Of a DNA stretch of 64,000 nucleotides, positions 171 to 51,356 are shown piece after piece. The translations under genes were made by a program, and so were the position numbers. Position 1 is the stretch's first letter; every line of letters starts with the position of its first letter. This DNA is from Candidatus Nomurabacteria bacterium GW2011_GWB1_43_19 (GTDB lineage Bacteria > Patescibacteriota > Minisyncoccia > Phycocordibacterales > UBA9973). The DNA is taken from contig LCGB01000003.1 of NCBI GenBank assembly GCA_000999465.1, positions 4,252 through 68,251 of the forward strand. Direction: 5' to 3'. Under the pieces are notes generated by a model. It ran no database searches and had not been told where the DNA came from. It saw nothing but the letters and a program-made list of their open reading frames with translations.

Positions 171-195
171 TTCCCCTATGTCAGACATAGGGGAA
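171..195. repeat. Palindromic element, ATGTCWGACAT family (single unit TTCCCCTATGTCAGACATAGGGGAA)
   Basis: Perfect 25-nt palindrome immediately after the rseP stop. It overlaps the annotated start of the M24 peptidase ORF. Confidence 0.8.
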
Positions 196-8241: not shown

Positions 8242-10542
8242 TTATTCAATTTTTTTAATTTTATGCGGATTATGCATTGGACAGCTTTTATTTGAGCAAC
8301 GTTCGGGAATTGTTTTTGTGCCTTCCATCATTAAACTGCCACATTTTTCGCATGTTCGGCCCGTCGGCTTGGCTTTGATTGCGAATTTACAGTCCGGATA
8401 GTTAGAGCAGGAATAAAAGATACCGAAACGTCCGCGCCGTTCGGAAATGTCGCCCTTCTTACATAAAGGGCAGGTGACACCAGTGCGTTTCCTCGCTTCC
8501 TCGGCCTCGTCTTTTTTTATGAATTTGCATTTCGGATAGCGCGAGCAAGCGATGAATGTGCCGGAGCCGTCACGCCTCTCTTTGATGACCAGCTTGCCGT
8601 GTTCCTTCTCCTTTTTTCCTCGCCTTGCCGAAGTCTCGGACGAAGGCAGGTCTCCGCACAAAGGGCACACCTCACCAGTTTCTTTGGGTCCCTCTAGTTC
8701 TTTTCCGTCCAGCATCAGCGCGCCGTCACAGTCGGGATATTTGGAGCAAGAGTAAAATTTTCCTCCGCGCGCAAGTTTGATTATCATCAAACTGCCGCAT
8801 TTTGGGCATTTGATGGTTTTTGGGGCGTCGCCCAGATTAGTCGCTTTTTCCAGTTTTTCTTTTGATTTAATGTCTTTGGAAAAAGGAATGTAAAAATCCT
8901 TCAGCGTTTTCTCGTATTCGCGTTCCCCGCGGGAAATTTCGTCAAGTTCGTCTTCCATTTCGGCGGTGAAAGTGTCGGAAATATAATTGGCAAAATGCTT
9001 TTCCAGAAAATCCGAGACCACTTCGCCGACATCAGTGGGAAATAATGTTTTGCTTTCTTTTTTTATATACCCGCGTTCTTCGATTGTCCGCATAATAGAC
9101 GCATAAGTGGAAGGCCGACCGATACCCCGCTGCTCAAGTTCTTTAATCAGTCCCGCTTCGCTGTATCTCTCCGGCGGTTCGGTAAATTTTTCCTCGCTGG
9201 AGAGACCAAGTAGTTTTAATTTTTCTCCCTCTTTACACAAAGGCAGTTCCACGTCATTCCCGCGGGCGCCTTGATCGACAGCCAGCCATCCCGGAAAAAG
9301 CAAGCGTGAGCCGTTGGCCCGGAAGTCCGGGATTTCCCCACATGTCAGACATGTGGGAACCACATGTCTGACATGTGGGAACTCAACACGGGCGGTAATT
9401 TTTGTCTTCAGCAGTTTCGCGTCGGCCATCTGCGAAGACACGGCGCGTTCCCAGATGAGGCGGTAGAGGTGGTCTTGATCGTCGTGGCTCGTGTGCAGTT
9501 TGTCTATATGGGTGGGCCGGATGGCTTCATGCGCTTCTTGGGCGTTTTTTGATTTTGTTTTGTAAATTCTTCCTTCGGCATATTCATTTCCGTATTCCTT
9601 TTTTACGAAAGACAAAATTTGGGCCCGCGCGGCGGCGGATAAATTGGTGCTGTCGGTTCTCATGTAAGTAATGTGTCCCGCCTCATAGAGTTTCTGAGCT
9701 ATCTGCATCGTGCGCGAAGGGGAGTAGCCCAGGCGCGAACTGGCGGTCTGCTGCAGAGTGGAAGTGGTGAAAGGCGCGCGCGGCGAATGTTTCTGTTCCG
9801 ATTCTTTGACTCCGCTTATCAGCCAGGCGCCGGATTTTCCCGCCTCCATTATTTTTTCTACCAGTTTTTCGTCCCGAGGTTCTTCCGAGCATTCTAGAGT
9901 AATTTTTTCTTCTCTTGCTGTTTCAAACAAGCCCAGAATTTTCCAGAATTTTTCCGGAATAAAAGCGCGGATTTCCCGCTCGCGTTCCATTATTATGCGG
10001 AGGGCAGGGGACTGGACTCGTCCGGCCGAGAGCCCGTACCTGACCTTTTTCCAGATAAGTCCCGAAAGGTCGTAGCCGACAAGGCGGTCAAGCACCCGGC
10101 GCGCCTCTTGCGCTTTGCGAAGAGCCGTATCAATTTTCCGCGGATGCTTTAACGCTTCTTCCACCGCTTCTTTGGTAACTTCATAAAAAGTCACCCGTTC
10201 TATCGGGGCCCTGATCTTTTTATCCTGCTTTAAGAGGGTTTCTATATGCCAAGCGATGGCTTCTCCTTCGCGGTCGGGATCGGTTGCCAGGATTATTTCA
10301 CCGGCTTTTTCGGCGAGCATTTGGAGTTCATGCACGATTTTTTCCTTGCCTCTCGAAATCTCATAATGTGGAATAAATCCGCCTTCTATGTCTATGGCTT
10401 TTTTGTTTGACTTCGGCAGGTCGCGGATGTGCCCGACGGATGCGCGCACGGTAAACTTGTCCGCTTTCAGGGCAGACCCGTCATTCAGATATTTTTCAAT
10501 AGTTTTCGCTTTCGACGGCGATTCCACAATCAATAACTTCAT
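8242..10542 (-). CDS. topA: DNA topoisomerase I with C-terminal multiple zinc ribbons
   Basis: Toprim N-terminus MKLLIVESPSKAKTIEKYL, active-site Tyr region GRPSTYAS and four C4 zinc-ribbon repeats. It carries an in-frame palindromic insert at 9334-9382. Confidence 0.95.
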   Translation of the reverse strand: MKLLIVESPSKAKTIEKYLNDGSALKADKFTVRASVGHIRDLPKSNKKAIDIEGGFIPHYEISRGKEKIVHELQMLAEKAGEIILATDPDREGEAIAWHIETLLKQDKKIRAPIERVTFYEVTKEAVEEALKHPRKIDTALRKAQEARRVLDRLVGYDLSGLIWKKVRYGLSAGRVQSPALRIIMEREREIRAFIPEKFWKILGLFETAREEKITLECSEEPRDEKLVEKIMEAGKSGAWLISGVKESEQKHSPRAPFTTSTLQQTASSRLGYSPSRTMQIAQKLYEAGHITYMRTDSTNLSAAARAQILSFVKKEYGNEYAEGRIYKTKSKNAQEAHEAIRPTHIDKLHTSHDDQDHLYRLIWERAVSSQMADAKLLKTKITARVEFPHVRHVVPTCLTCGEIPDFRANGSRLLFPGWLAVDQGARGNDVELPLCKEGEKLKLLGLSSEEKFTEPPERYSEAGLIKELEQRGIGRPSTYASIMRTIEERGYIKKESKTLFPTDVGEVVSDFLEKHFANYISDTFTAEMEDELDEISRGEREYEKTLKDFYIPFSKDIKSKEKLEKATNLGDAPKTIKCPKCGSLMIIKLARGGKFYSCSKYPDCDGALMLDGKELEGPKETGEVCPLCGDLPSSETSARRGKKEKEHGKLVIKERRDGSGTFIACSRYPKCKFIKKDEAEEARKRTGVTCPLCKKGDISERRGRFGIFYSCSNYPDCKFAIKAKPTGRTCEKCGSLMMEGTKTIPERCSNKSCPMHNPHKIKKIE
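9334..9382. repeat. Palindromic element, ATGTCWGACAT family, tandem pair inside topA CDS
   Basis: TTTCCCCACATGTCAGACATGTGGGAACCACATGTCTGACATGTGGGAA. In-frame in topA, where it translates as ...FPHVRHVVPTCLTCGEIP.... Confidence 0.8.
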
Positions 10543-21968: not shown

Positions 21969-22915
21969 GTTATTATTTTTGCGATAACTTTCGCTAATTT
22001 AAGCGAATCATGACGAATAAGGCTCCGCTTGACGCTGTCGTTATTATTCTGGGTGGAAATTTTATTTGACAGCAAATCCTCCCGGATTACCCGCGGACTA
22101 CCATATTCGTTTTTGATAAACACTTCCTCTCCGGCGTCCTTAAGATACCTCTCTTTCTGCTCTCCTGAAAACTCTCCCTTGTTTATTAAAATAAAATCCG
22201 CCTTCCTGCCTAAATATTTTTCAACAGTACTGATATATCTTTCTGTATTCCAGCCCATCGTATGTCCTTGTTTATTCACGAGATTTACCAGAAAAATTAT
22301 CTTCGCCTTGCTTGCTTGGATGGTTTCCTGGAAATTTTCGGCAATTAAATTAGGAATAATGGAACAATAAATATTGCCGGGGCCGATGATTATATAGTCG
22401 GCGGCTAAAATTGCGTCTCTCCCTAAGGGATTCAGTATGGTGTTTCTTTCATAAAAAATTCTTTCCAAGTTGTCTCCGCCATTTTCCGTTTGCAGGTCCG
22501 CCGTATCTATTTTGCTTTCTCCGGTAATTACTTCGCCGCCTTTGAGTTCCGCGCATAAAACAGCTGCGTCTTTTGTTATCGGTATGATTTTTCCCTTGGC
22601 ATTAAATACAAAAGAGAGGATTTTAAGGCCTCGGCTGAAGTCCCCGGTAATTTTTTCCATCACCGCCAAAAGAATATTGCCCAATTTGTGCCTTCCGACT
22701 CTCCGGTTGAGAAATTCTTTTCCGGAGAGGGCGACCAGGCATTGTCTGACGTCTCCCGGCGGCATAACACCCCATTTTCTCCGGAGAACTCCGGTTGACC
22801 CTCCGTCATCCGCCATAGAGACAAGAGCCGTCAAAAAAACATCCGGAAACGTTTTAAGCCCGGAGAGTACGGTATAGCTGCCTGTTCCGCCGCCCACCGT
22901 TACAATGTGTTTCAT
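21965..22915 (-). CDS. YvcK/CofD-family gluconeogenesis factor (UPF0052)
   Basis: VTVGGGTGSYTVLSGLK...DDGGSTGVLR signature. Confidence 0.8.
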   Translation of the reverse strand: MKHIVTVGGGTGSYTVLSGLKTFPDVFLTALVSMADDGGSTGVLRRKWGVMPPGDVRQCLVALSGKEFLNRRVGRHKLGNILLAVMEKITGDFSRGLKILSFVFNAKGKIIPITKDAAVLCAELKGGEVITGESKIDTADLQTENGGDNLERIFYERNTILNPLGRDAILAADYIIIGPGNIYCSIIPNLIAENFQETIQASKAKIIFLVNLVNKQGHTMGWNTERYISTVEKYLGRKADFILINKGEFSGEQKERYLKDAGEEVFIKNEYGSPRVIREDLLSNKISTQNNNDSVKRSLIRHDSLKLAKVIAKIIT

Positions 22916-22979
22916 AAAAGTGATTCTAGCAAATAAAGCGCCATTTGTCTTTAACTCCTTTATATTATATATTTACTAT

Positions 22980-25900
22980 ATGATTTCAAGGATATATGTG
23001 ACGCCCAAAGGCAAGGCAGATTTCATCAATTCCTACCTGATTGCGCACAAATTCTCAAAAGAGCGGATAGAAAAAATCGCCCAAGCTCTGACGAATCCCG
23101 TCCTTGAAAACTACTCCATAAACGAGTTCCCGAAAACAGAAAAGTTTTCGTATGCTATTGAGATCGGATTTAAGCCGGGGGTCACGGACAACGCCGGGCA
23201 TACGGCGGAAGAAACAATTTACGATTTATTTCATATTCCGTCGGGTGTTGGACACCGGGATTTCGGGTGTCCAACACCCGACGGAACTCTGGCGGTGTAC
23301 ACTTCCAAAATATTTTTAATACACGAAGCGGACCGCAAAGAGGCGGAACAAATCGCCCTTTCACTTCACAATCCGCTAATTGAACGCTCTTACATCGTCA
23401 GTCGGAAAGATTTGCAGAAAAATAAAAATTTGTTTTTAGAAGCGCCGCGGGTCATCTTGGAAAAACGCGTTCCGGTAATTAACATTTCGCTTGATGTGCT
23501 CGATGACGAACTCGTTAAAATCGGCCAGGAGGGGATAAGGGACGAGAAAGGCGACCGGCGGGGACCTTTGGCGCTGGACCTTGCGTCCATGAAAGCAATT
23601 CAGGAACATTTCCGGAAATTAAAAAGAAATCCGACGGATATTGAACTGGAGTCCTTGGCCCAAACCTGGTCCGAGCATTGCAAACACACCATTTTTGCCA
23701 ATCCGATAGACGACATACATGACGGTTTGTATAAAACTTACATCAAAGGAGCCACTAATTTAATTAGGAAAAATAAGGGCCGCCGCCTGGGCGGGGCAAG
23801 TAAAAACGACTTCTGCGTATCGGTATTTTCCGACAATTCCGGCGGCATAGTTTTTGACAAGAATTATCTCATAACCCACAAAGTGGAAACGCACAATAGC
23901 CCGTCCGCCCTGGACCCCTTCGGCGGGGCCATTACCGGTATCGTCGGAGTCAACCGCGACACCATTGGCTTCGGTCTGGGCGCCAAGCCGGTGGCGAATG
24001 TTTACGGCTTTTGTTTTGGCTATCCAGAGGACGAGCAAAAATTTTTTAAAGACAAAAACATGACACAATTAATGCTTCCGCCGAAAAGAATTATGAAAGG
24101 TGTAATTAAGGGAATCAATGTCGGGGGAAATTGTTCCGGCATTCCGACTCTTTCCGGTTTTTTGAAATTTGACGATAGATACCGCGCCAAGCCTTTGGTT
24201 TTCGCCGGCACCGTCGGAATTATCCCAAGGAAAATTAACGGTAAATTCTTACACACCAAAGAGGCAAAGGCGGGTGACTATATAGTAATGGTCGGAGGCA
24301 GAGTGGGTTTGGACGGTATCCACGGAGCGACTTTTTCTTCGGTAGCGATGGATGCGAATTCCCCGGCCACCGCAGTGCAAATCGGCGACCCGATAACCCA
24401 GAAAAAATTAAGCGACGCGATTGTCAAAGAAGCGCGAGACATGGGCTTATACAACAGCATCACCGACAACGGCGCCGGCGGGCTTTCCTGTTCGGTGGCG
24501 GAAATGGCCAAGGAGTGCGGCGGAGCGAAGGTGGCATTGGAAAAAGTTCCGTTAAAATATCCGGGGTTGTGCCCCTGGGAAATATGGATTTCCGAATCAC
24601 AAGAGCGCATGACTCTCTCTGTGCCAAAAAGTAAATGGAAAAAATTTGAAAATCTTATGGAAAGCCGAGGAGTGGAAGCGACGGTTATTGGCGAATTTAC
24701 CAAGGCGGAAAAATGCGTAGTCAAATACAAAGGAAAAAAAATAATGGATATTCCGATGGATTTCCTGCATAACGGACTGCCTAAGCATCATTTATACACC
24801 TCACCCCCAGCCTCTCTCCTTGAACCCCCTTACTCCCCCTTATCAGGGGGAAACCATTTGCCTCCCCTGATAAGGGGAGGTCGGGAGGGGTTGGAGGGGA
24901 TGGCCGAAAGGCCGGGTGAGATCTACACTAAAGATTTAGAGAATCTGCTTGGCAATAAAAATATCAGCGGATTTTCTTTTGTTTCGGAACAATACGACCA
25001 TGAAGTCCAAGCATCTTCCGTATTAAAGCCCCTCTCCGGAGCAGGGCGCATCAACACCGACGCGCAGATTTTCCGCCCGGTTTTGGACTCGCCCAAGGGA
25101 GTTGTGCTGACTTCCAGCGCTTATCCGTCATATGGAGACATCAGCGCTTACAATATGGCCGCCTGCGCGATTGATACGGCGGTCAGGAACATAATTTCGG
25201 CCGGCGGAACACTCTCGCACCTGGCCATCTTGGACAACTTTTGCTGGTGCTCATCCAATGACCCGAAACGCCTTGGCCAACTTGTAGGCGCGGTCAAGGC
25301 CTGTTATGACTGCGCGGTGGGATATGGAACTCCCTTTATCTCCGGCAAGGACAGCATGTTCAACGATTTCAAAGGATATGATGAAAGGGGAAACCCGGTG
25401 GATATTTCCATTCCGCCGACATTGCTAATTTCCGCTATCAGCGTAATGCCGGATTTGTATAAGGCCGTTTCGCCTGAATTCAAAAAAACCGGAGACATTA
25501 TTTACTTGCTGGGAGAAACGAACGACGAGATGGGAGGAGGGGAGTATTTAAAGTCGTTGGGCTTCGTAGGCAATAACACCCCGAAAGTTGATGTGAAAAA
25601 AAATATGAGAACTTATCTAGCGCTGGAGAAAGCGATTCAAGAAGGATTAGTATCGTCTTCGCTTTCGGTAACTTCTGGCGGGCTGGGCATCGCCCTGGCC
25701 AAAGCCGCTGTTGGGGGGATGATGGGGTGCAATATTTCTCTAAGCCCCATAGGCAAGACCTATGGGGTAGATGTAAAGCTTTTCTCCGAAAGCCAGGGCA
25801 GAATTCTTGTTTCGGTGCCGTCTAAAAATGTTTCCGCTTTTGAAAAAATAATCAAAAATATCTCTTTCGCTAAGTTGGGCAGAGTTGTCGGAGGCGGAAA

Positions 25901-25994
25901 GGTAGTTATTATGGACAAAAGCAAGATAGTTGAGACCAATGTGAAAAAATTACACAAAATTTATCATAAATTTTCAAATGAAAACCGAAACTAA
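22980..25994 (+). CDS. purL: Phosphoribosylformylglycinamidine synthase, PurS-PurL fusion with in-frame Pro/Gly-rich insertion
   Basis: N-terminal PurS-like region (RIYVTPKGKADF...KPGVTDNAGHT), then PurL AIRS domains (VETHNSPSALDPFGGAITG, GKDSM). Residues ~606-640 are encoded by a GC-rich palindromic element. Confidence 0.85.
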   Translation: MISRIYVTPKGKADFINSYLIAHKFSKERIEKIAQALTNPVLENYSINEFPKTEKFSYAIEIGFKPGVTDNAGHTAEETIYDLFHIPSGVGHRDFGCPTPDGTLAVYTSKIFLIHEADRKEAEQIALSLHNPLIERSYIVSRKDLQKNKNLFLEAPRVILEKRVPVINISLDVLDDELVKIGQEGIRDEKGDRRGPLALDLASMKAIQEHFRKLKRNPTDIELESLAQTWSEHCKHTIFANPIDDIHDGLYKTYIKGATNLIRKNKGRRLGGASKNDFCVSVFSDNSGGIVFDKNYLITHKVETHNSPSALDPFGGAITGIVGVNRDTIGFGLGAKPVANVYGFCFGYPEDEQKFFKDKNMTQLMLPPKRIMKGVIKGINVGGNCSGIPTLSGFLKFDDRYRAKPLVFAGTVGIIPRKINGKFLHTKEAKAGDYIVMVGGRVGLDGIHGATFSSVAMDANSPATAVQIGDPITQKKLSDAIVKEARDMGLYNSITDNGAGGLSCSVAEMAKECGGAKVALEKVPLKYPGLCPWEIWISESQERMTLSVPKSKWKKFENLMESRGVEATVIGEFTKAEKCVVKYKGKKIMDIPMDFLHNGLPKHHLYTSPPASLLEPPYSPLSGGNHLPPLIRGGREGLEGMAERPGEIYTKDLENLLGNKNISGFSFVSEQYDHEVQASSVLKPLSGAGRINTDAQIFRPVLDSPKGVVLTSSAYPSYGDISAYNMAACAIDTAVRNIISAGGTLSHLAILDNFCWCSSNDPKRLGQLVGAVKACYDCAVGYGTPFISGKDSMFNDFKGYDERGNPVDISIPPTLLISAISVMPDLYKAVSPEFKKTGDIIYLLGETNDEMGGGEYLKSLGFVGNNTPKVDVKKNMRTYLALEKAIQEGLVSSSLSVTSGGLGIALAKAAVGGMMGCNISLSPIGKTYGVDVKLFSESQGRILVSVPSKNVSAFEKIIKNISFAKLGRVVGGGKVVIMDKSKIVETNVKKLHKIYHKFSNENRN
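24796..24900. repeat. GC-rich nested palindromic element inserted in frame in purL
   Basis: Core CCCCCTTATCAGGGGG...CCCCTGATAAGGGG, flanked by CCTCTCTCC.../...GGAGGTCGGGAGGGG. About 65% GC. Encodes TSPPASLLEPPYSPLSGGNHLPPLIRGGREGLEG within PurL. Confidence 0.7.
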
Positions 25995-26670: not shown

Positions 26671-27492
26671 ATGAAAAAAAAGAAAAAATTAAAATTAAAA
26701 AAACCAAGAGTGATAATAATGTCCGGTTACGGGCTTAACTGCGAAGAGGAAACAAAATTCGCTTTTGAGAAAGCGGGAGCAAAAGAAAAGGTCAGCGCGG
26801 ACATCGTGCACATTAACGACCTGATAAAGAAGCCAAAAATGCTCTCGGAATACCAGATACTCGCTTTCCCGGGAGGATTTTCCTATGGTGACGATACGGG
26901 AAGCGGAAAGGCCTATGCTAATAAATTCAAGAATCATTTGTTAAAAGAACTGAAAGAATTTTTGTCCAGGGACACCCTAGCGATTGGCATTTGCAACGGA
27001 TTCCAAATTATGACGAATCTAGGTATTCTGCCGGGAGCTCTTTCCCAAAATAAGGGCGGAAAATATCTGGACAGATGGGTAGACCTGAAAGTTACGGGTC
27101 GGAGCCCTTGGCTCTCGGGCATTAAAAAAATCTCGGTTCCAATAGCCCACGGGGAGGGGTGCTATGTAATAAGAAAAAAGGAATATAAAAAAATGTCCGC
27201 CAAAGGCGGATCCGCCTCTGGCGGAAAAAACAATGGAGAAATTGCCCTCACTTACACCAAGGGAGATATTTGCCGTTTTCAAAATCTTGAAAAAAACCCG
27301 AACGGGTCGGCTTATGACATTGCCGGCGTGAACGCCTATAACGGCAGAGTCCTGGGGCTGATGCCCCATCCGGAACGGGCAATGTTTGTTTATCAAAGCC
27401 CTTTGTGGTATAAAAATAAAAAGGGCGATAAATCGGAAATGGGTCCCAGTTTGCGGATTTTTAAAAACGCAATCAAATACTTTATTAAATGA
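26671..27492 (+). CDS. purQ: Phosphoribosylformylglycinamidine synthase glutaminase subunit
   Basis: Class I GATase: FPGGFSYGDD, GICNGFQ and the HPE catalytic triad region. Confidence 0.85.
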   Translation: MKKKKKLKLKKPRVIIMSGYGLNCEEETKFAFEKAGAKEKVSADIVHINDLIKKPKMLSEYQILAFPGGFSYGDDTGSGKAYANKFKNHLLKELKEFLSRDTLAIGICNGFQIMTNLGILPGALSQNKGGKYLDRWVDLKVTGRSPWLSGIKKISVPIAHGEGCYVIRKKEYKKMSAKGGSASGGKNNGEIALTYTKGDICRFQNLEKNPNGSAYDIAGVNAYNGRVLGLMPHPERAMFVYQSPLWYKNKKGDKSEMGPSLRIFKNAIKYFIK

Positions 27493-34810: not shown

Positions 34811-36583
34811 ATGAAAGGGGAAAGCGAAAATAGAATACATTCAGTAGACTCAGTATCTACGACGTGCCAGAACTGCAAGGGTTCATTCACGATTGAGCCG
34901 GACGATTTCGGATTCTATGAAAAGATCAAGGTTCCGCCGCCAACTTTTTGTTTTGATTGCCGGCTACAAAGAAAACTAACTTTCGTCAACGAACGGGCGC
35001 TTTTTAAAAGAAAATGCGATAATTGCGGCAAAGACACCATAACAATGTATTCACCCAGAAACCCTTTTAGAGTTTTCTGCACTAGTTGTTACAATGATAG
35101 GAGAAACTGCCTGGAATACGGGATAGATTTAGATTTCTCAAAACATTTTCTCGCGCAATTTTATGAGCTTTTTAAAAAGGTCCCGCGGCTTCATTTGATG
35201 CACAAAAACAACAACGGCGAAGGGTGCGAGTATGCTAACCATATTTACCGCAGTCGTAGAGTTTATCTATCTTATACGATAGTAAAATCCGAAGACATTT
35301 ATTACTCCAAACAAGGCCTAGAGGGAAATAAAATTTGCTTAGATAGCTTTAATATGAAACATAGCGAGAGGGGTTATGAATTGGTCTATGTTTCAAGGGC
35401 CTATAATTCAAGATTTCTAATCCATTCTAGCCGTTGCATTGATAGTCAGTATCTTTTGCATTGCGGTGATTGTAATAATTGCTTCATGTCTCATAATCTC
35501 CGACATAAAAGCTATGTTTTTAGAAATCAACAATTGACTAGAGAAGAGTATTTCAAGGAGATGAAAAAAATTAAACTTGATTCCTATACCGAACAAGAAA
35601 AGTTAAAAAAAGAATTTTCTGAATTACCTAGAATGACAGGCCCAGCCCAAGTCAAGGCGGTTGTAAATGTAACCGGCGACTTTATTGGTCATTCAAAAAA
35701 CGCTAAATACTGTTTTAGCAATGTTGATACAGAAAATTCTAAATATATTGTTTTTGGTGTAAATACTATTCGAGATTGTTATGATCTAATGTTTGCTGGC
35801 CGGAGTGAACTTTGTTACGAATGTGCTGGTAGCGGCGCTCAAAATAATAATGTTTCTTTCTCTCTTGATATAGGAGCAAATCATGAGATTAATTATTGTA
35901 TTTCTACTAACAATTGCGGATACTGTTTTGGTTGTGTCGGTATAACCAATCAAAATTATTGCATTCTCAATAAACAGTACACCAAAGAAGAATACGAAAA
36001 GCTGGTGCCGAAAATTATTAAGCACATGAATCAAATGCCCTATGTGAGCAAAATAGGGAGGGTGTATAAATACGGCGAATTTTTTCCAGAAGAATTCTCA
36101 CCTTTCGCTTATAATGAAAGTTTGGCCTACGAAGAATTTTCAATGACGAAAGAAGAAGTTTTAAAAGAGGGCTACGAGTGGCGGGACTTGGAGGAGAAGC
36201 AGTATAAAACCACTATTGATAATAGAGATTTACCTGATAGTGTTAATGATGTCAAGGACAGTATTCTTGAAGAAGTAATTGCTTGTCCCAATCAGGGTCA
36301 GACCGAGACCAAGTGCACCTACGGCTTTAGAATTGTGCCAGATGAACTTAGATTTTATCGTTTAATGAAGATACCACTGCCTAGACTTTGTCCAAACTGC
36401 CGCTATTATGAACGTCGTAAGTGGCTTAACCCGTGGAAACTCTGGCATCGGCAATGTATGTGCAGTAAAAAGAATCACTTTCACGGAGTGGAAAAGTGTG
36501 AGGTGGAATTTGAGACGTCATACGCCCCGGAGAGGCCGGAAATTGTTTACTGCGAAAAATGCTACCAGGCGGAGATGTATTAA
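34811..36583 (+). CDS. Cysteine-rich multi-zinc-ribbon protein, long paralog (family member A)
   Basis: N-terminal CQNCKGSFTIEPDDFGFYEKIKVPPPTFCFDCRLQR, a second ribbon KRKCDNCGK...FCTSCY, a Cys-rich core (CIDSQYLLHCGDCNNC..., CYECAGSG...CGYCFGCVGITNQNYCILNKQYTKEEY), SPFAYNES, a C-terminal ribbon CPNCRYYERRKWLNPWKLWHRQCMC and terminal ETSYAPERPEIVYCEKCYQAEMY. No signal peptide or TM. Confidence 0.7.
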   Translation: MKGESENRIHSVDSVSTTCQNCKGSFTIEPDDFGFYEKIKVPPPTFCFDCRLQRKLTFVNERALFKRKCDNCGKDTITMYSPRNPFRVFCTSCYNDRRNCLEYGIDLDFSKHFLAQFYELFKKVPRLHLMHKNNNGEGCEYANHIYRSRRVYLSYTIVKSEDIYYSKQGLEGNKICLDSFNMKHSERGYELVYVSRAYNSRFLIHSSRCIDSQYLLHCGDCNNCFMSHNLRHKSYVFRNQQLTREEYFKEMKKIKLDSYTEQEKLKKEFSELPRMTGPAQVKAVVNVTGDFIGHSKNAKYCFSNVDTENSKYIVFGVNTIRDCYDLMFAGRSELCYECAGSGAQNNNVSFSLDIGANHEINYCISTNNCGYCFGCVGITNQNYCILNKQYTKEEYEKLVPKIIKHMNQMPYVSKIGRVYKYGEFFPEEFSPFAYNESLAYEEFSMTKEEVLKEGYEWRDLEEKQYKTTIDNRDLPDSVNDVKDSILEEVIACPNQGQTETKCTYGFRIVPDELRFYRLMKIPLPRLCPNCRYYERRKWLNPWKLWHRQCMCSKKNHFHGVEKCEVEFETSYAPERPEIVYCEKCYQAEMY

Positions 36584-36587
36584 CATA

Positions 36588-36626
36588 ACACAATTTCGCG
36601 ATCGCGAAATTGTGTTAAAAAATTAC
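36588..36626 (+). promoter_or_regulatory. Variant of the conserved motif as a perfect 28-nt palindrome downstream of Cys-rich gene A
   Basis: ACACAATTTCGCGATCGCGAAATTGTGTTAAAAAATTA. Compare copy 2: TCTGCGATAGCAGAAATTGTAACAAAAAAATTA. Confidence 0.45.
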
Positions 36627-36663
36627 ATCTACGTTAAAGTGTAGATACAAAAAACTGAAATAA

Positions 36664-39931: not shown

Positions 39932-41143
39932 ATGGAACATTTTTCTAAAACAAAGTATGTTGCGGCTACTGTTTTGTTTATAGCTTTATTTTTTATTTTC
40001 GGCGTCTATGTCGGAGACCAAAATCGCCCGGCAATAGATAAAGTTCTTGGTATTTCCGGCAAAGAAACGGCTGTTGAGACCCAAACGGATTTTTCCCCGT
40101 TTTGGAAAGTTTGGAATACCATTAATGAAAAACACCCAACCGCGAGCAAAACAACCGATCAAGACAGGGTTTATGGGGCAATTTCAGGGTTGGTAGGCTC
40201 GCTAAACGACCCATATAGCGTGTTTTTAACCCCAGAAGAGGCAAAATCATTTGGAGACGAAATAGCCGGCAACTTTGACGGAATTGGCATGGAAATCGGC
40301 ATAAAAAATAAAGTGCTCACCGTCATCGCTCCGCTTAAAGACACTCCCGCCTATAGGGCCGACATTAAATCCGGTGATAAAATTATTAGAATTGATAAAA
40401 CAGACACAATAGATTTAAGCGTTGAAGAGGCAATTAAGTTAATTCGGGGACCAAAAGGAACAGTTGTTACTCTTACCATTCTCCGCGAAGGAACAGAGCA
40501 ACCAAAAGAAATAAAAATTACCAGAGACACTATAAATATACCGACTTTAGACACAGAGTTGAGAGAAGACGGTATTTTTGTAATCAAACTTTATAGTTTT
40601 TCCGCCAATTCCGCCGGTCTTTTCCGTAATGCGATAGAACAATTTGCAGAGGCAAAAACAGACAAACTTCTCCTTGATTTGCGGGGCAACCCGGGCGGAT
40701 ATCTGGAAGCATCCGTAAACATGGCCAGTTGGTTTCTGGAAGGAGGGAAAGTCGTTGTGACCGAGGACTACGGTAACGGCAGGAAGGCGCACGTTTACCG
40801 AAGCAAAGGCTATGATATATTCAATGACAAATTAAAATTCGTAGTTCTGATAGACGGCGGCTCCGCTTCGGCTTCGGAGATACTAGCTGGTGCCCTGCAG
40901 GACCACAGACGCGCTAAACTGGTGGGGGAGAACAGCTTCGGCAAAGGTTCCGTCCAGCAAGTGGTGGATATAACTTCGGATACTATCCTTAAAATCACTG
41001 TCGCTAAATGGCTGACTCCGAACGGAATTTCCATTTCGGAAAAAGGCCTGACTCCGGACTACTTCGTTGAAATAACGGAAAAAGACATCAAGGCGAAAAG
41101 AGATCCGCAAATGGATAAAGCGGTGGAGTTATTATTAAAATAG
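39932..41143 (+). CDS. ctpA: Carboxy-terminal processing protease (S41 family, PDZ domain)
   Basis: A PDZ region, LDLRGNPGG and the catalytic GSASASEI...K arrangement. Confidence 0.85.
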   Translation: MEHFSKTKYVAATVLFIALFFIFGVYVGDQNRPAIDKVLGISGKETAVETQTDFSPFWKVWNTINEKHPTASKTTDQDRVYGAISGLVGSLNDPYSVFLTPEEAKSFGDEIAGNFDGIGMEIGIKNKVLTVIAPLKDTPAYRADIKSGDKIIRIDKTDTIDLSVEEAIKLIRGPKGTVVTLTILREGTEQPKEIKITRDTINIPTLDTELREDGIFVIKLYSFSANSAGLFRNAIEQFAEAKTDKLLLDLRGNPGGYLEASVNMASWFLEGGKVVVTEDYGNGRKAHVYRSKGYDIFNDKLKFVVLIDGGSASASEILAGALQDHRRAKLVGENSFGKGSVQQVVDITSDTILKITVAKWLTPNGISISEKGLTPDYFVEITEKDIKAKRDPQMDKAVELLLK

Positions 41144-41144
41144 G

Positions 41145-41192
41145 TCCATAAGTCAGACATATAGGGATTCCCACATGTCTGACTTATGGGAA
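41145..41192. repeat. Palindromic element, ATGTCWGACAT family, composite tandem pair upstream of rplI
   Basis: TCCATAAGTCAGACATATAGGGATTCCCACATGTCTGACTTATGGGAA. Lies between the ctpA stop and the rplI start. Confidence 0.75.
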
Positions 41193-41198
41193 ATAAAG

Positions 41199-41663
41199 AT
41201 GAAAGTAATATTTTTACAAGACGTAGTACGGGTAGGAAAGAGGCACGACATAAAGGAAGTCAACGACGGCTACGCTATGAATTTTTTGATTCCAAGAAAA
41301 TTAGCCGAACTTGCCACCCCGAGAGCGACCGCCGAACTGGAAAAGAGAATGAAAAATATAACTATTGAAAAAGAAGTGCAGGAAGACCTTTTGATGAAAA
41401 ATCTGGAAGAAATAAAAGGTAAAATTGTTCATATTCAGGCCAAAACGGACGAAAAAGGGCATCTGTTTTCTAAAATTCACGACAAAGACATCGTAGAAGC
41501 GATGAAAAACGAACATCATGCTGATATTAGTAAAGAATTTATCGTTCTAGAAAAGCCAATTAAAGAAATAGGGGAGTTCGATATCCCGATTGAAATACCT
41601 GCCCCGTCCGTGGCGGGGAAGGGCAAAAAATCATCATTCAAGCTTATCATTGAGAAAGAATAG
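41199..41663 (+). CDS. rplI: 50S ribosomal protein L9
   Basis: MKVIFLQDVVRVGKRHDIKEVNDGYAMNFLIPRKLA matches the L9 N-domain. The track ORF starts at 41175 inside a palindromic repeat (MSDLWEIK). Confidence 0.85.
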   Translation: MKVIFLQDVVRVGKRHDIKEVNDGYAMNFLIPRKLAELATPRATAELEKRMKNITIEKEVQEDLLMKNLEEIKGKIVHIQAKTDEKGHLFSKIHDKDIVEAMKNEHHADISKEFIVLEKPIKEIGEFDIPIEIPAPSVAGKGKKSSFKLIIEKE

Positions 41664-41672
41664 ACGATGAAT

Positions 41673-41698
41673 AAAAAATCCCCATTCGGGGATTTTTT
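41673..41698. terminator. Bidirectional rho-independent terminator between rplI and rpmA
   Basis: AAAAAATCCCCATTCGGGGATTTTTT: a GC stem flanked by an A-run on one side and a T-run on the other. The flanking genes are convergent. Confidence 0.8.
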
Positions 41699-41700
41699 AT

Positions 41701-41973
41701 TCATATTATGTTTACTGTTTTTTTGACTATAATTCTGCCATGGAAGGAGGTCTTGCGCTTGGAACCGAATTTGACGGTGCCATCTTTTAGGGAAAAAAGG
41801 GTATGGTCCCGGCCGGTTGATACGTTATTACCCGCCATAATGGGCGTTCCGCGCTGGCGGACGATAATAGACCCGGACTGGGCCTTTTGGCCGTCGGCCA
41901 GCTTAATACCGAGGTATTTTGGGTTTGAGTCCCTTAAGTTTTTGGCGGTACCGCCGGCTTTTCTATGTGCCAT
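41701..41973 (-). CDS. rpmA: 50S ribosomal protein L27
   Basis: [24 protein letters not shown]...GRDHTLF is the L27 signature. Confidence 0.9.
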
Positions 41974-49988: not shown

Positions 49989-50008
49989 TCTACGCTATGG
50001 CGTAGATT
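49987..50008 (+). terminator. Hairpin after M15 peptidase gene
   Basis: AATCTACGCTATGGCGTAGATT is followed by a T-rich tract. Confidence 0.5.
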
Positions 50009-50012
50009 GATT

Positions 50013-50051
50013 TATGTTATCACTTTTGGACGGCCGTCAAATTTGATAACA
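50013..50051. repeat. Conserved 3' block of Cys-rich paralogs (copy at gene B) containing palindrome TTTGACGGCCGTCAAA
   Basis: TTATCACTTTTGGACGGCCGTCAAATTTGATAACATTAA is near-identical to 51362-51401 downstream of gene C. Confidence 0.75.
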
Positions 50052-51356
50052 TTAATACATCTCTGCCTGGTAGCACTTTTCGCAATATACAATTTCCGGC
50101 CTATCCGGAGCATAAGAGGTCTCAAATTCCACCGGGCACCTTGCCCCGCCCTGGCGCGGGTCCCCCGCCCCGTGGAAATGATTTTCTTTCTTACACATAC
50201 ATGAACGGTGCCAAAGTTTGAAAGGGTTGGTTCGTTTAACCCGCGCCTGGTGCCGGCAATGAAAACATCTCCTCGGAATAGGTATGTTCATTTTCTTATA
50301 AAAATTCAGTTCGTTCGAGACAATCTTGTAATTTCTCTTGCAGTTTGTGCACGCCAAAATTTCTTCCAGAATTGAATCGCCGACATCATCGATTGATTCG
50401 GGAATTTTTCCCGGCAATAAAGTTTCTTTGCCGGTAGTTTTTTGTATGTTGTTTTGCCAATTATACCCCGCTTCATTTGCTTCTTTTTTCGCAAGCGGAA
50501 ATTGTTCCATAGCGCAAGATTCGTTATAGCCGAAATATGAAAGTTCTACCGGAAAATATTCCCCGTATGAATACTTATTACCTTTTTTATCTAAAAAAGG
50601 CATGGTATCCATGTGCTCCATAATTTTAGGCATAAGTTCCCCATATTGTTCTTTGGTATATTGTTTATTAAAAATGCAATAATTCGTATTGCGTAGCCCC
50701 ACACAGCCGAAAACATGCTTGCAGTTGTGGCAATCGTAAAGAAATTGCGAGTCAACGCAGGCCAAGCAGATTTCCGAATATTTGGTCTGATATGACTTAC
50801 TACAAAGAATGCATTCATATATCCAATTGCTCTCTGACCGGATATTCATGCAGTCCACAATATCTTTGCCTTTCAATATGAAGAAGCTGTACATGACATT
50901 TTCCACGTACCATCCGGAAAAGCACATATAGCAATTCTTGGAAAACCACCAGTCGTGGGTGTATTCGCAGTTCAAGCTGGCAATCCCGTCGTCATTAACA
51001 ATTGCCATGTGCGGGACTCTTTTCATCAACTCAATGAATTGGGCAAAAAATGGCTTTGAAAAATCATAGTCAACCCCGTAACTTTTCGGATCCCATTTAT
51101 CACTCCACCAGCATTTATTGCAGTACACAATAATCCCGGAATCCGGATGGTAAATGGAAATAATTCCTTTGCCGCACAGGTCACATTTGCGATTATAAAG
51201 GGACATATTGTTCCTCCAGGCCCAACGCCTCTGCCTCCGGCAGTCCGGACAAAAGGTTGGCGGGGGAACCTTTATTTTCTCGTAAAATCCGAAATCATCC
51301 GGTTCTATAGTAAAATTCTTTTTGCAATTAACACAATTTTTTATATCCTGTTTCAT
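50052..51356 (-). CDS. Cysteine-rich multi-zinc-ribbon protein, paralog (family member B)
   Basis: Same modules as the 34811 ORF: CVNCKKNFTIEPDDFGFYEKIKVPPPTFCPDCRRQRR ... CVDSQFLYDCHNCKHVFGCVGLRNTNYCIFNKQYTKEQY ... CTNCKRNYKIV..FYKKMNIPIPRRCFHCR ... ETSYAPDRPEIVYCEKCYQAEMY. Confidence 0.7.
   Translation of the reverse strand: MKQDIKNCVNCKKNFTIEPDDFGFYEKIKVPPPTFCPDCRRQRRWAWRNNMSLYNRKCDLCGKGIISIYHPDSGIIVYCNKCWWSDKWDPKSYGVDYDFSKPFFAQFIELMKRVPHMAIVNDDGIASLNCEYTHDWWFSKNCYMCFSGWYVENVMYSFFILKGKDIVDCMNIRSESNWIYECILCSKSYQTKYSEICLACVDSQFLYDCHNCKHVFGCVGLRNTNYCIFNKQYTKEQYGELMPKIMEHMDTMPFLDKKGNKYSYGEYFPVELSYFGYNESCAMEQFPLAKKEANEAGYNWQNNIQKTTGKETLLPGKIPESIDDVGDSILEEILACTNCKRNYKIVSNELNFYKKMNIPIPRRCFHCRHQARVKRTNPFKLWHRSCMCKKENHFHGAGDPRQGGARCPVEFETSYAPDRPEIVYCEKCYQAEMY

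What the first reader, a model, noticed from the sequence alone, without database searches (positions are those of the whole stretch)
9334..9382. GC-rich palindromic element family (ATGTCWGACAT core) with a copy inserted in frame inside topA
A palindromic unit of about 22-25 nt, TTCCC(C)nnATGTC[A/T]GACATnnGGGAA, occurs at 171-195 as a single unit. It also occurs at 9334-9382 and 41145-41192 as tandem inverted pairs. The topA copy lies inside the coding sequence and is translated in frame (FPHVRHVVPTCLTCGEIP) between conserved topoisomerase blocks (RVEFP ... ANGSRLLFPGWL). This resembles the in-frame Rickettsia palindromic elements. The other two copies overlap the 5' ends of the M24 peptidase and rplI ORFs, and each creates an apparent MSD... 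start.
Basis: partly seen in the sequence, partly recalled or inferred. Interest (0 to 1): 0.65.

Follow-up and report, generated by a model that had tools for sequence, protein, structure and literature searches.

The report
Mobile DNA hairpin inside topoisomerase gene
A 48-base palindromic repeat of a REP-type mobile-element family, which in related ultra-small (CPR) bacteria has its own hairpin-cutting transposase, sits in frame inside the essential topoisomerase I gene and adds a 16-codon loop at a site hit by such elements in about 30% of relatives.

Summary
The window holds three loci (five units) of a 25-nt palindrome, TTC-CCACATGTC-N-GACATGTGG-GAA. One locus is a perfect 48-nt inverted doublet, in frame inside topA (8242-10542, minus strand). 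It encodes FPHVRHVVPTCLTCGE in a strand-loop-strand that is 15 residues shorter in E. coli TopA and 12 residues shorter in 85 of 120 close relatives.

The family is not Rickettsia RPE. It is a REP/REPIN-type family of Patescibacteria (Paceibacterota/Nomurabacteria). It occurs in many copies per genome, as singles and hairpin-forming doublets, and shows no target-site duplications. In related genomes a Y1 HUH transposase gene is flanked by the same units. That gene's best fold match is the E. coli REP-associated transposase 4ER8, and its HUH motif and tyrosine are conserved. No such gene lies in the window.

About a quarter of sampled units are in frame inside housekeeping genes. Carriers of the topA insert are not each other's closest relatives. 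The insert is 84-100% identical between them against 66-75% for the flanking topA DNA. Other REP subfamilies occupy the same codon position in other lineages, and purL has similar hot spots.

Verdict: a real new member of a known kind. The mobilisation mechanism is inferred, not shown.

The parts
9334..9381 (-). 48-nt inverted doublet (REPIN-like) of the REP unit, in frame in topA. On the coding strand it reads TTCCCACATGTCAGACATGTGG-TTC-CCACATGTCTGACATGTGGGGAA and encodes FPHVRHVVPTCLTCGE (TopA residues 388-403).
   Evidence: arms 100% complementary; long hairpin, -25.6 kcal/mol, z -7.8; 16 codons; open in 4 of 6 frames.
9334..9359 (.). Unit 1 of the doublet (plus strand TTCCCCACATGTCAGACATGTGGGAA; centre base A at 9347).
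9360..9381 (.). Unit 2 of the doublet (plus strand CCACATGTCTGACATGTGGGAA; centre base T at 9369). Its centre base is complementary to that of unit 1.
   Evidence: The same purine/pyrimidine centre pairing (G/C) is seen in L001, L003 and L016.
8242..10542 (-). topA (DNA topoisomerase I, 766 aa), the host gene. The insert lies in a loop between two beta strands, at the position equivalent to E. coli TopA G418/A419.
   Evidence: One search gives strand 376-387, a loop with pLDDT below 50 at 389-402, and strand 407-414, but the overall model is poor.
171..195 (.). Single REP unit of a variant subtype (TTCCCCTATGTC-A-GACATAGGGGAA). It lies in the 37-nt spacer between the M50 peptidase stop (168-170) and the M24 peptidase ATG (208).
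   Evidence: The empty-site comparison is L126, which has only 2 nt between the same two genes.
41144..41192 (.). Degenerate REP doublet between the S41 peptidase stop (41141-41143) and the likely rplI start (ATG at 41199). The outer half-arms CCATAAGTC/GACTTATGG carry two compensatory changes relative to the consensus, so the long hairpin is preserved.
   Evidence: The subtype CCATAAGTC-N-GACTTATGG corresponds to the RAYT-internal peptide SHKSDLW.

Best explanation
The 48-nt palindrome in topA is a REPIN-like inverted doublet of a REP (repetitive extragenic palindrome) family that is widespread in Patescibacteria of the Paceibacterota/Nomurabacteria group.

**Inferred mechanism.** The units form hairpins in single-stranded DNA. 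I infer that they are copied or moved by a REP-associated tyrosine transposase (RAYT, a Y1 HUH enzyme). In related genomes the RAYT gene is flanked by the same units. This class of enzyme leaves no target-site duplication.

**Why the topA copy survives.** The doublet is exactly 16 codons. It has no stop codon in the frame used. It lies in a loop between two beta strands of TopA, which I assign to domain II from memory of the E. coli structure. The most likely status of the encoded peptide (FPHVRHVVPTCLTCGE) is a tolerated passenger rather than an adaptation.

**Recurrence.** The same loop has been filled repeatedly, or re-seeded, by different REP subfamilies in different lineages. Comparable hot spots exist in other housekeeping proteins.

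**Shown:** the family, its copy number and taxonomic range, hairpin covariation, the association with RAYT, in-frame tolerance, and recurrence at the site.

**Inferred:** that RAYT moves the units, and that the insert is selectively neutral.
For: **Family**
About 108 stretches come from Patescibacteria genomes, with up to 11 stretches per genome. About 9 are from other phyla, close to my rough estimate of the number of chance matches.
- 159 units lie in 109 Patescibacteria loci. The consensus is TTC-CCACATGTC-N-GACATGTGG-GAA. Ten doublets have 22-27 nt unit spacing.
- Flank positions 2-4 beyond the 19-mer covary as base pairs (0, 0 and 4 of 2000 shuffles reach the observed counts).
- There are no target-site duplications.

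**Transposase**
- The L065 ORF 1410-2105 matches NCBIfam REP_Tyr_transpos (E 9e-11, below the curated cut-off).
- All 19 homologs in the element loci match Pfam Y1_Tnp (best E 8e-9).
- The histidines of MPNHFH (the HUH motif) and the tyrosine of YIHLNP are invariant.
- The AlphaFold model has pLDDT 89 and pTM 0.88. Its best PDB fold match is 4er8_A, the E. coli RAYT bound to a REP hairpin (E 6e-7), followed by the ISDra2, IS608 and IS200 transposases.
- JGI names several members 'REP element-mobilizing transposase RayT'.
- 12 of the 19 genes have a unit about 40 nt upstream and a unit at the stop codon. Ten of these also carry an in-frame internal unit.
- Three further RAYT subtypes are flanked by, and contain, their own REP subtype.

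**The topA insert**
- There is a 15-aa gap against E. coli TopA.
- 85 of 120 relatives have the short form and 35 of 120 carry inserts at this site.
- Same-family carriers (P0001, P0029, P0042, P0066, P0090) are not each other's nearest neighbours.
- The insert is 84-100% identical between carriers, against 66-75% for the flanking 300 nt.
- The 766-aa form with the identical insert occurs in at least 8 cluster members from independent assemblies, one of them seen on 37 contigs.

**Generality**
- 48 of 159 units lie in long ORFs, in three frames: PHVGHVE, SHMSDMW and TCPTCG.
- The purL gene of the window carries two in-frame palindromes of other families.
- purL relatives show hot spots of the same kind.
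Against: - No RAYT gene lies in the 64-kb window. Whether this genome has one was not determined.
- The classical RAYT-associated REP feature, a conserved GTAG tetranucleotide 5' of the hairpin, is absent. Only A/T tracts flank the units.
- RAYT matches to curated sequence models fall below their cut-offs. The PDB profile search was not significant (E 0.49).
- Filled and empty topA alleles differ by replacement rather than clean insertion: 21 nt replaced by 63 nt in L124 versus L123. The insertion event itself is therefore not reconstructed.
- All same-family topA inserts share the same position and frame. A single old insertion kept uniform by conversion would also produce this pattern.
- No transposition of any REP by a RAYT has been demonstrated here.
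Confidence: 0.75

Rival explanations
1. A single ancient insertion in an ancestral topA was inherited vertically and kept palindromic and uniform by gene conversion from the genomic REP pool, or was precisely excised in most lineages. On this view there were no repeated independent insertions.
For: - All five same-family carriers have the doublet at the same codon position, in the same frame and with the purine-centred unit first.
- The in-frame REP inside the RAYT gene always matches the subtype of that gene's flanking REPs. This shows that local concerted change of resident copies does happen.
- IS200/IS605-type enzymes excise precisely (my knowledge), so loss is plausible.
Against: - Carriers are scattered among non-carriers in nearest-neighbour analysis. 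P0036 (filled) is 98.7% identical to P0057 (empty).
- At least four different element families occupy the site.
- The purL sites show the same patchy pattern.
Confidence: 0.25
2. The insert has been exapted. HVRH...CLTC (HxxH-x4-CxxC) forms a small zinc-binding knuckle that adds a DNA-contacting or stabilising element to TopA domain II.
For: - The frame used in all five carriers yields HxxH followed by CxxC.
- TopA already uses CxxC zinc ribbons at its C-terminus.
- The sequence TCPTCG also occurs as a CxxC motif at conserved positions of long ORFs. I read these from memory as native zinc motifs of LeuRS and other proteins.
Against: - The peptide follows directly from translating the palindrome.
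- Other lineages carry unrelated peptides at the same site, and most carry none.
- The segment is modelled with pLDDT below 50.
- The same element is translated in other frames in other proteins.
Confidence: 0.05
3. The palindrome is kept in topA as a nucleic-acid signal. It could be a cruciform that senses negative supercoiling and modulates topA expression, or an mRNA hairpin that affects translation or decay.
For: - The arms are a perfect 20-nt match with a 3-nt spacer, and the predicted hairpin is very stable.
- The insert is conserved well above the flanking DNA.
- Site occupancy is highest in TopA (35/120) among the sites examined.
Against: - The same kinds of inserts occur in purL, in the RAYT gene and at orthologous sites of other long ORFs (two of which I read from their motifs as TsaD-like and KsgA-like), with no link to supercoiling.
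- Most relatives lack any insert.
- Some occupants of the site are not palindromic, for example L128.
Confidence: 0.04
4. It is a member of the Rickettsia palindromic element (RPE) family, or a conventional MITE derived from a DDE transposon.
For: Some short RPEs (RPE-4 and RPE-6) were reclassified as CGTC-type REPs (PMC3733652).
Against: - The unit is 25 nt, not 100-150 bp.
- The host phylum is different.
- There are no terminal inverted repeats around a distinct core, and no target-site duplications.
- The associated enzyme is a Y1 HUH transposase.
Confidence: 0.02
5. Assembly or sequencing artefact at a palindrome.
For: Palindromes can cause chimeric joins. Some cluster members are truncated near the insert, for example P0242, which begins at TARVEFPHV.
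Against: - The identical 766-aa protein with the insert is found in many independent assemblies and samples.
- Related inserts are found in four other lineages.
- The ORF is intact, with all domains present.
Confidence: 0.01

Closest known systems
REP/REPIN-RAYT systems of Proteobacteria (E. coli REP/BIME with TnpA-REP, PDB 4ER8; Pseudomonas REPINs; PMC3116915, PMC3479197)
   Same: - Short palindromic units occur in many copies, as singles and as inverted doublets that fold into one long hairpin.
- Most copies lie just after stop codons.
- There are no target-site duplications.
- A Y1 HUH transposase gene is flanked by the cognate units, at most one per subtype in each sampled genome.
- REP subtype and transposase subtype covary.
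   Different: - There is no GTAG or CGTC tag.
- Each unit is itself an almost perfect 25-nt palindrome with a conserved GTC-N-GAC apex.
- The doublet spacer is only 3-8 nt.
- The transposase is about 230 aa, with a C-terminal extension, and carries an in-frame cognate REP in the loop after the HUH strand.
- About a quarter of sampled copies are intragenic.
- The host is Patescibacteria. I found no paper that links RAYTs or REPs to this group.
Intragenic GTAG/CGTC REPs (Di Nocera et al. 2013, PMC3733652), including Rickettsia RPE-4 and RPE-6
   Same: REP singles and dimers are translated in frame inside known proteins, including DNA-metabolism genes such as uvrA and uvrB. Dimers encode about 20-30 aa. 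Some families sit inside target palindromes.
   Different: The sequence family, the tag and the phylum all differ. topA is not mentioned in that paper's main text. Here there is also a documented recurrent site shared by several subfamilies.
Rickettsia palindromic elements, RPE-1 type (Ogata et al. 2000; my knowledge)
   Same: They are selfish palindromic repeats tolerated in frame in housekeeping proteins of small genomes, typically at surface positions.
   Different: RPE-1 is 100-150 bp and encodes about 30-50 aa, no dedicated transposase is known for it, and it is restricted to Rickettsia. The unit here is 25 nt and is associated with a RAYT.
IS200/IS605 insertion sequences and their hairpin-bearing miniature derivatives
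   Same: They use a Y1 HUH enzyme fold, recognise hairpins, are expected to use single-stranded DNA chemistry, and leave no target-site duplications.
   Different: Here the gene is flanked by identical palindromes rather than distinct left and right ends. The gene appears at most once per subtype in each sampled genome, while the hairpins are dispersed on their own. No conserved target tetranucleotide was found.

Membership tests
REP/REPIN-RAYT system | Short (20-40 nt) palindromic unit repeated many times per genome | tested here: met
   There are 5 units in the window.
REP/REPIN-RAYT system | Inverted doublets (REPINs) able to form one long hairpin | tested here: met
   Window doublets lie at 9334-9381 and 41144-41192. 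Ten more doublets have 22-27 nt spacing. Compensatory changes between the arms are seen at 41144-41192 and in L003.
REP/REPIN-RAYT system | A Y1 HUH tyrosine transposase (RAYT) gene flanked by the cognate REPs | tested here: met
   The feature is met in related genomes. 12 of 19 RAYT genes have units on both sides, and 3 other subtypes are flanked by their own REP subtype. The fold matches 4er8. It is not testable for the window's own genome, because the window holds no RAYT gene.
REP/REPIN-RAYT system | Conserved GTAG (or CGTC) tetranucleotide at the foot of the hairpin | tested here: not met
   The consensus is TTC-CCACATGTC-N-GACATGTGG-GAA. No position-specific TAG or GTAG was found, only A/T tracts.
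REP/REPIN-RAYT system | Predominantly extragenic location | tested here: inconclusive
   111 of 159 sampled units are outside long ORFs. About 36 appear to be true in-frame copies. The sample is biased to exact 19-mer matches, and gene calls were ORF-based.
REP/REPIN-RAYT system | RAYT single-copy per genome while REPs are multi-copy | tested here: inconclusive
   In the sampled stretches each genome shows at most one RAYT of a given subtype against 8-11 REP-bearing stretches. Whole genomes were not examined.
Rickettsia palindromic elements (RPE) | 100-150 bp palindromic element of Rickettsia inserted in frame in protein genes | tested here: not met
   In-frame insertion is met. The length (25 or 48 nt) and the host (Nomurabacteria) are not.
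MITE (DDE-transposon derived) | Terminal inverted repeats plus target-site duplications | tested here: not met
   No direct repeats of 2-6 nt exceed the shuffled expectation at three candidate boundaries.
Y1 HUH transposase (IS200/IS605/RAYT superfamily), for the associated protein | HUH motif, catalytic tyrosine and the alpha/beta HUH fold | tested here: met
   H83 and H85 of the MPNHFH (HUH) motif and Y153 are invariant in 63 sequences. All 19 members match Pfam Y1_Tnp weakly. The model has pLDDT 89, and the top Foldseek hits are 4er8, 2xm3, 2a6m and 2f4f.

The most novel reading that the evidence does not exclude
Resident REP copies may act as landing pads or conversion targets. Permissive protein loops (TopA domain II, purL, the RAYT loop after the HUH strand) would then be serially re-seeded with whichever REP subtype the genome's RAYT currently recognises.

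On this reading the in-frame REP inside the RAYT gene always matches the subtype of its flanking REPs. It would be a functional cis element, either an autoregulatory site or a master copy, rather than a passenger. REP/RAYT systems would be a steady generator of loop diversity in the proteins of ultra-small CPR bacteria.
Probability: 0.2. Interest if true: 0.75.

Novelty: new member of a known kind. Interest (0 to 1): 0.55.

Why it matters
- **New host range.** REP/RAYT systems have been studied mainly in Proteobacteria. This case places one in Patescibacteria, organisms with sub-megabase genomes and very short intergenic spacers.
- **Annotation.** With so little spacer available, a large share of copies appears to end up inside essential genes. 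This bears on annotation in three ways: false MSD... start codons, spurious 'lineage-specific inserts', and contig breaks at repeats.
- **Alignment and phylogeny.** CPR marker proteins can carry patchy, non-homologous loop inserts at the same column, which can mislead alignment-based phylogeny.
- **Protein evolution.** It bears on how selfish DNA contributes new loops to proteins.
- **A testable system.** A small RAYT and a 25-nt hairpin form a compact system for studying REP mobilisation.

Tried and rejected
- **Rfam.** At gathering thresholds only three tRNAs were found and nothing at the elements.
- **TopA structure.** The AlphaFold model from a shallow alignment was poor (pLDDT 59.7, pTM 0.35). 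I used only its local strand-loop-strand pattern and relied on the sequence alignment to E. coli TopA for position.
- **RAYT sequence searches.** The profile search of RAYT homologs against PDB sequences was not significant (4er8 top hit, E 0.49). Pfam on a single sequence gave nothing at E 0.01. The fold comparison settled the question.
- **Target-site duplications.** None were found.
- **Conserved tag.** There is no GTAG-like or TAG tag, and no link to stop codons beyond proximity.
- **L127 Y1_Tnp gene.** This gene lies 8 kb from a topA that carries a family-2 insert. It is a different RAYT type and has no matching palindromes at its ends. It is not evidence for a cognate pair.
- **L128 occupant.** The sequence occupying the TopA site in L128 is not clearly palindromic. 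Not every insert at the site can be assigned to an element.
- **Coincidental matches.** Seven exact 19-mer matches lie at one conserved position of long ORFs and encode TTCPTCGG(K/M)AKRETDTM. Three to five further matches encode CxxC motifs. I treat these as coincidences. I attribute them to LeuRS and to ligase-like and DnaJ-like proteins from memory, and did not test this with tools.
- **Insertion boundaries.** I tried to define a clean boundary from the 98.7%-identical pair L123/L124 and found a 21-nt to 63-nt replacement instead.
- **Topoisomerase-specific role.** I considered one and rejected it as the main reading, because purL shows the same kind of hot spots.
Full report
**1. The observation**

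The three sites exist as described.
- Position 171-195 is a perfect 25-nt palindrome, TTCCCCTATGTC-A-GACATAGGGGAA.
- Position 9334-9381 is an inverted doublet whose 20-nt arms (9337-9356 and 9360-9379) are 100% complementary, with 3 nt between them.
- Position 41144-41192 is a degenerate doublet, with arms 90% complementary.

The exact core ATGTCWGACAT occurs three times against 0.02 expected. The third locus has one mismatch per unit. A relaxed scan finds no other copies in the 64 kb.

As single-stranded DNA the doublets fold into one long hairpin. The topA doublet gives -25.6 kcal/mol (z -7.8) and the rplI-upstream doublet -16.2 (z -6.8). The single unit folds at -10.5 (z -4.4).

In the rplI-upstream doublet the outer half-arms CCATAAGTC and GACTTATGG differ from the consensus at two positions each. 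They remain complementary to each other. The long hairpin is therefore what is conserved.

**2. The host gene and the insert**

topA is the minus-strand ORF 8242-10542. It is 766 aa, with Toprim, Topoisom_bac and three zinc ribbons.

On the coding strand the doublet reads TTCCCACATGTCAGACATGTGG-TTC-CCACATGTCTGACATGTGGGGAA. That is 48 nt, or 16 codons, encoding FPHVRHVVPTCLTCGE.

Against E. coli TopA (4RUL) the alignment has a 15-residue gap exactly there, between E. coli G418 and A419. From my knowledge of the E. coli structure this is a beta-hairpin turn of domain II. I did not verify that with a structure comparison. The AlphaFold model of the window protein is poor overall (pLDDT 59.7). Locally it shows strand 376-387, a low-confidence loop at 389-402, and strand 407-414.

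The organism is a Nomurabacteria/Paceibacterota member of the CPR. Among the 120 closest TopA proteins, 85 have an 8-residue segment (typically IEGHEDL) where the window has 20.

The insert is not an assembly artefact. The same 766-aa protein with the identical insert occurs in at least eight cluster members from independent assemblies, one of which was seen on 37 contigs.

**3. What the element is**

- About 108 stretches are from Patescibacteria, labelled Paceibacterota, Nomurabacteria, Zambryskibacteria, Azambacteria, Magasanikiibacteriota, Minisyncoccia or 'Saccharibacteria'.
- Up to 11 stretches come from one genome.
- Nine stretches are from other phyla, close to my rough estimate of the number of chance matches.

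In the Patescibacteria loci there are 159 units with at most 2 mismatches. The consensus is TTC-CCACATGTC-N-GACATGTGG-GAA. The centre base is G in 64 units, C in 49, T in 30 and A in 16. Ten doublets have 22-27 nt unit spacing.

The three to four positions outside the 19-mer covary as base pairs: TTC/GAA, TCC/GGA, ATC/GAT, CTC/GAG and CCC/GGG. For positions 2, 3 and 4, only 0, 0 and 4 of 2000 shuffles reach the observed complementarity. There are no target-site duplications. There is no GTAG-like tag, only A-tracts and T-tracts.

**4. The associated enzyme**

In L065 a 231-aa ORF lies between two units and contains a third in frame. Several lines identify the enzyme.
- It matches NCBIfam 'REP-associated tyrosine transposase' (E 9e-11, below the curated cut-off).
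- Homologs occur in 19 of the element-bearing loci but not in the window.
- All 19 match Pfam Y1_Tnp weakly.
- The HUH motif (MPNHFH) and the tyrosine of YIHLNP are invariant.
- The family has more than 4000 members, and JGI names some of them RayT.
- A confident AlphaFold model (pLDDT 89.3, pTM 0.88) has as its best PDB match 4er8_A, the E. coli REP-associated tyrosine transposase bound to a REP hairpin (E 6e-7). The ISDra2, IS608 and IS200 transposases follow.

Twelve of the 19 genes have a unit about 40 nt upstream of the ATG and one at or over the stop codon. Ten of these also have an in-frame unit at nt 276-318. That unit lies in the low-confidence loop after the HUH strand.

Three other subtypes of the enzyme (L040, L015, L018) carry their own palindrome subtype at the same three positions. 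The subtypes are CCCCTATCCC-N-GGGATAGGGG, TCCCCTAAACC-N-GGTTTAGGGGA and TCCCATAGGTC-N-GACCTATGGGA.

A Y1 transposase gene flanked by its cognate repeats, with dispersed single and doubled hairpins, is the defining arrangement of REP/REPIN-RAYT systems (PMC3116915, PMC3337134). I therefore classify the element as a REP family. The classical GTAG tag is absent, and RAYT-driven movement is inferred, not shown.

**5. Tolerance in genes**

The unit has no stop codon in two frames: SHMSDMWE and PTC(P/L/Q/R)TCG. In the third frame (FPHV-x-HVG) a stop appears only when the centre base is T. The window's doublet is open in 4 of 6 frames.

Of the 159 sampled units, 48 lie inside ORFs of at least 150 aa. 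About 12 of these are coincidental matches to CxxC motifs. Seven lie at one conserved position of long ORFs and read TTCPTCGG(K/M)AKRETDTM, a motif I recognise from memory as LeuRS and did not test. The remaining roughly 36 include:
- TopA;
- the RAYT gene itself;
- a site shared by L055 and L099 in an ORF that I read from its motifs as TsaD-like (not tested);
- two other orthologous sites each shared by three genomes;
- three more doublets in long ORFs.

In-frame REPs are already documented in other phyla, including in uvrA and uvrB. Some short Rickettsia RPEs have been equated with CGTC-type REPs (PMC3733652). I found no paper linking RAYTs or REPs to Patescibacteria.

**6. The TopA site is a recurrent target**

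Thirty-five of 120 relatives have inserts at this codon position.
- Five carry the same family: P0001, P0029, P0042, P0066 and P0090. All are in the same frame, giving PHV(G/R)HV..TC(P/L)TCGE.
- These five are not each other's nearest neighbours. Their nearest neighbours are empty or carry other inserts.
- Between carriers the 45-nt insert is 84-100% identical (45/45 for L001 versus L016). The 300 nt on either side are 66-75% identical.

Other occupants of the site are palindromic doublets of other subfamilies:
- TCGGACGTTGGACGTCC...GGACGTCCAACGTCCGA in L126;
- TCGGGTGTTGGACACCC...GGGTGTCCAACACCCGA in L127;
- CTCCCCCTTAGCAGGGGGAG in L123.

The occupant in L128 is not clearly palindromic.

In the closest filled/empty pair (L123 and L124, proteins 98.7% identical), 21 nt are replaced by 63 nt. 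The events are therefore not simple insertions.

The pattern fits two models. One is repeated acquisition from each genome's REP pool. The other is one old copy repeatedly converted or replaced. I favour recurrent seeding but cannot exclude the second.

TopA is not unique. The window's purL (22905-25994) carries two in-frame palindromes of other families. purL relatives show hot spots at residues 48 (22/120), 84 (6/120) and 607 (at least 16/120).

**7. The two intergenic copies**

Both copies start 1-2 nt after the upstream stop codon and lie 6-12 nt before the likely true start of the next gene. Each provides an in-frame upstream ATG, which makes ORF callers extend the M24 peptidase and rplI genes by MSD....

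In L126 the same M50 and M24 genes are separated by 2 nt, against 37 nt in the window. This serves as an empty-site comparison for the unit at 171-195.

**8. Verdict**

The better name is a REP/REPIN-type element with a RAYT partner, not an RPE.

It is a new member of a known kind. The noteworthy features are the CPR host, the high intragenic fraction, recurrent occupation of the same protein loops by several subfamilies, and a RAYT gene that carries its own cognate REP in frame.

The functional readings (zinc knuckle, supercoiling-sensitive cruciform) are not excluded, but nothing here supports them specifically.

Noticed in passing
window 23236-23286 (inside purL ORF 22905-25994, + strand): A perfect 21-nt-arm palindromic doublet of another family, TTCCGTCGGGTGTTGGACACC-GGGATTTCG-GGTGTCCAACACCCGACGGAA, is translated in frame as IPSGVGHRDFGCPTPDGT. 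The same family occupies the TopA hot spot in P0043/L127. Only 6 of 120 purL relatives have an insert at this position.
   Followed up: partly
window 24825-24888 (inside purL): A third palindromic family (CCCCCTTACTCCCCCTTATCAGGGG ... CCCCTGATAAGGGGAGGTCGGGAGG) is translated in frame as EPPYSPLSGGNHLPPLIRGGREG. Related CCCCTTANCAGGGG and CCCCTGNTAAGGGG units occur in at least 9 other fetched loci and in the TopA site of L123.
   Followed up: partly
window 27196-27225: Two adjacent small hairpins, TCCGCCAAAGGCGGA and TCCGCCTCTGGCGGA, lie in frame (SAKGGSASGGK) in a 281-aa ORF. This may be a fourth short palindromic family. A degenerate hairpin of similar type underlies the 7-residue TopA insert SALKADK (about 10456-10476), which only 37 of 120 relatives have.
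   Followed up: no
L065 1410-2105 and homologs in L098, L066, L085, L072, L094, L097, L086, L046, L110, L040, L015, L018: The RAYT-like gene carries an in-frame copy of its own cognate REP in the loop after the HUH strand. The subtype of this internal copy always matches the REPs flanking that gene (4 subtypes). More distant RAYT homologs (L080, L119, L071, L074) lack the insert.
   Followed up: partly
L012, L049, L071, L090, L092, L101, L107 (and L021, Nitrospirota): The exact 19-mer also occurs in long ORFs at one conserved position, encoding TTCPTCGG(K/M)AKRETDTM. I recognise this from memory as a LeuRS zinc motif and did not test it with tools. It appears to be a coincidence between a native CxxC motif and one reading frame of the element, and it is a source of false positives in element counts.
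   Followed up: partly
window 36570-36633 and 49999-50067: Two long AT-rich imperfect palindromes (30-32 nt arms, 77-81% complementary) resemble each other (GATGTATTAACAT...). They may belong to another repeat family.
   Followed up: no
P0242, P0251 (TopA cluster members) and many RAYT contigs of 1-2 kb: Several public contigs begin or end at or near the topA insert. Many RAYT genes sit on very short contigs. This suggests that these repeats break CPR metagenome assemblies.
   Followed up: no
L013 38-56, 191-209, 1805-1823, 1958-1976: Units are embedded in a larger repeated block together with a second palindrome (TTGAGTAGTC-G-GACTACTCAA). This suggests composite arrays of different REP subtypes.
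   Followed up: no
window 41667-41704: A perfect 17-nt-arm hairpin, ATGAATAAAAAATCCCC/GGGGATTTTTTATTCAT, lies between the convergent rplI ORF (ends 41663) and a 90-aa minus-strand ORF that I did not identify. It looks like a bidirectional terminator.
   Followed up: no
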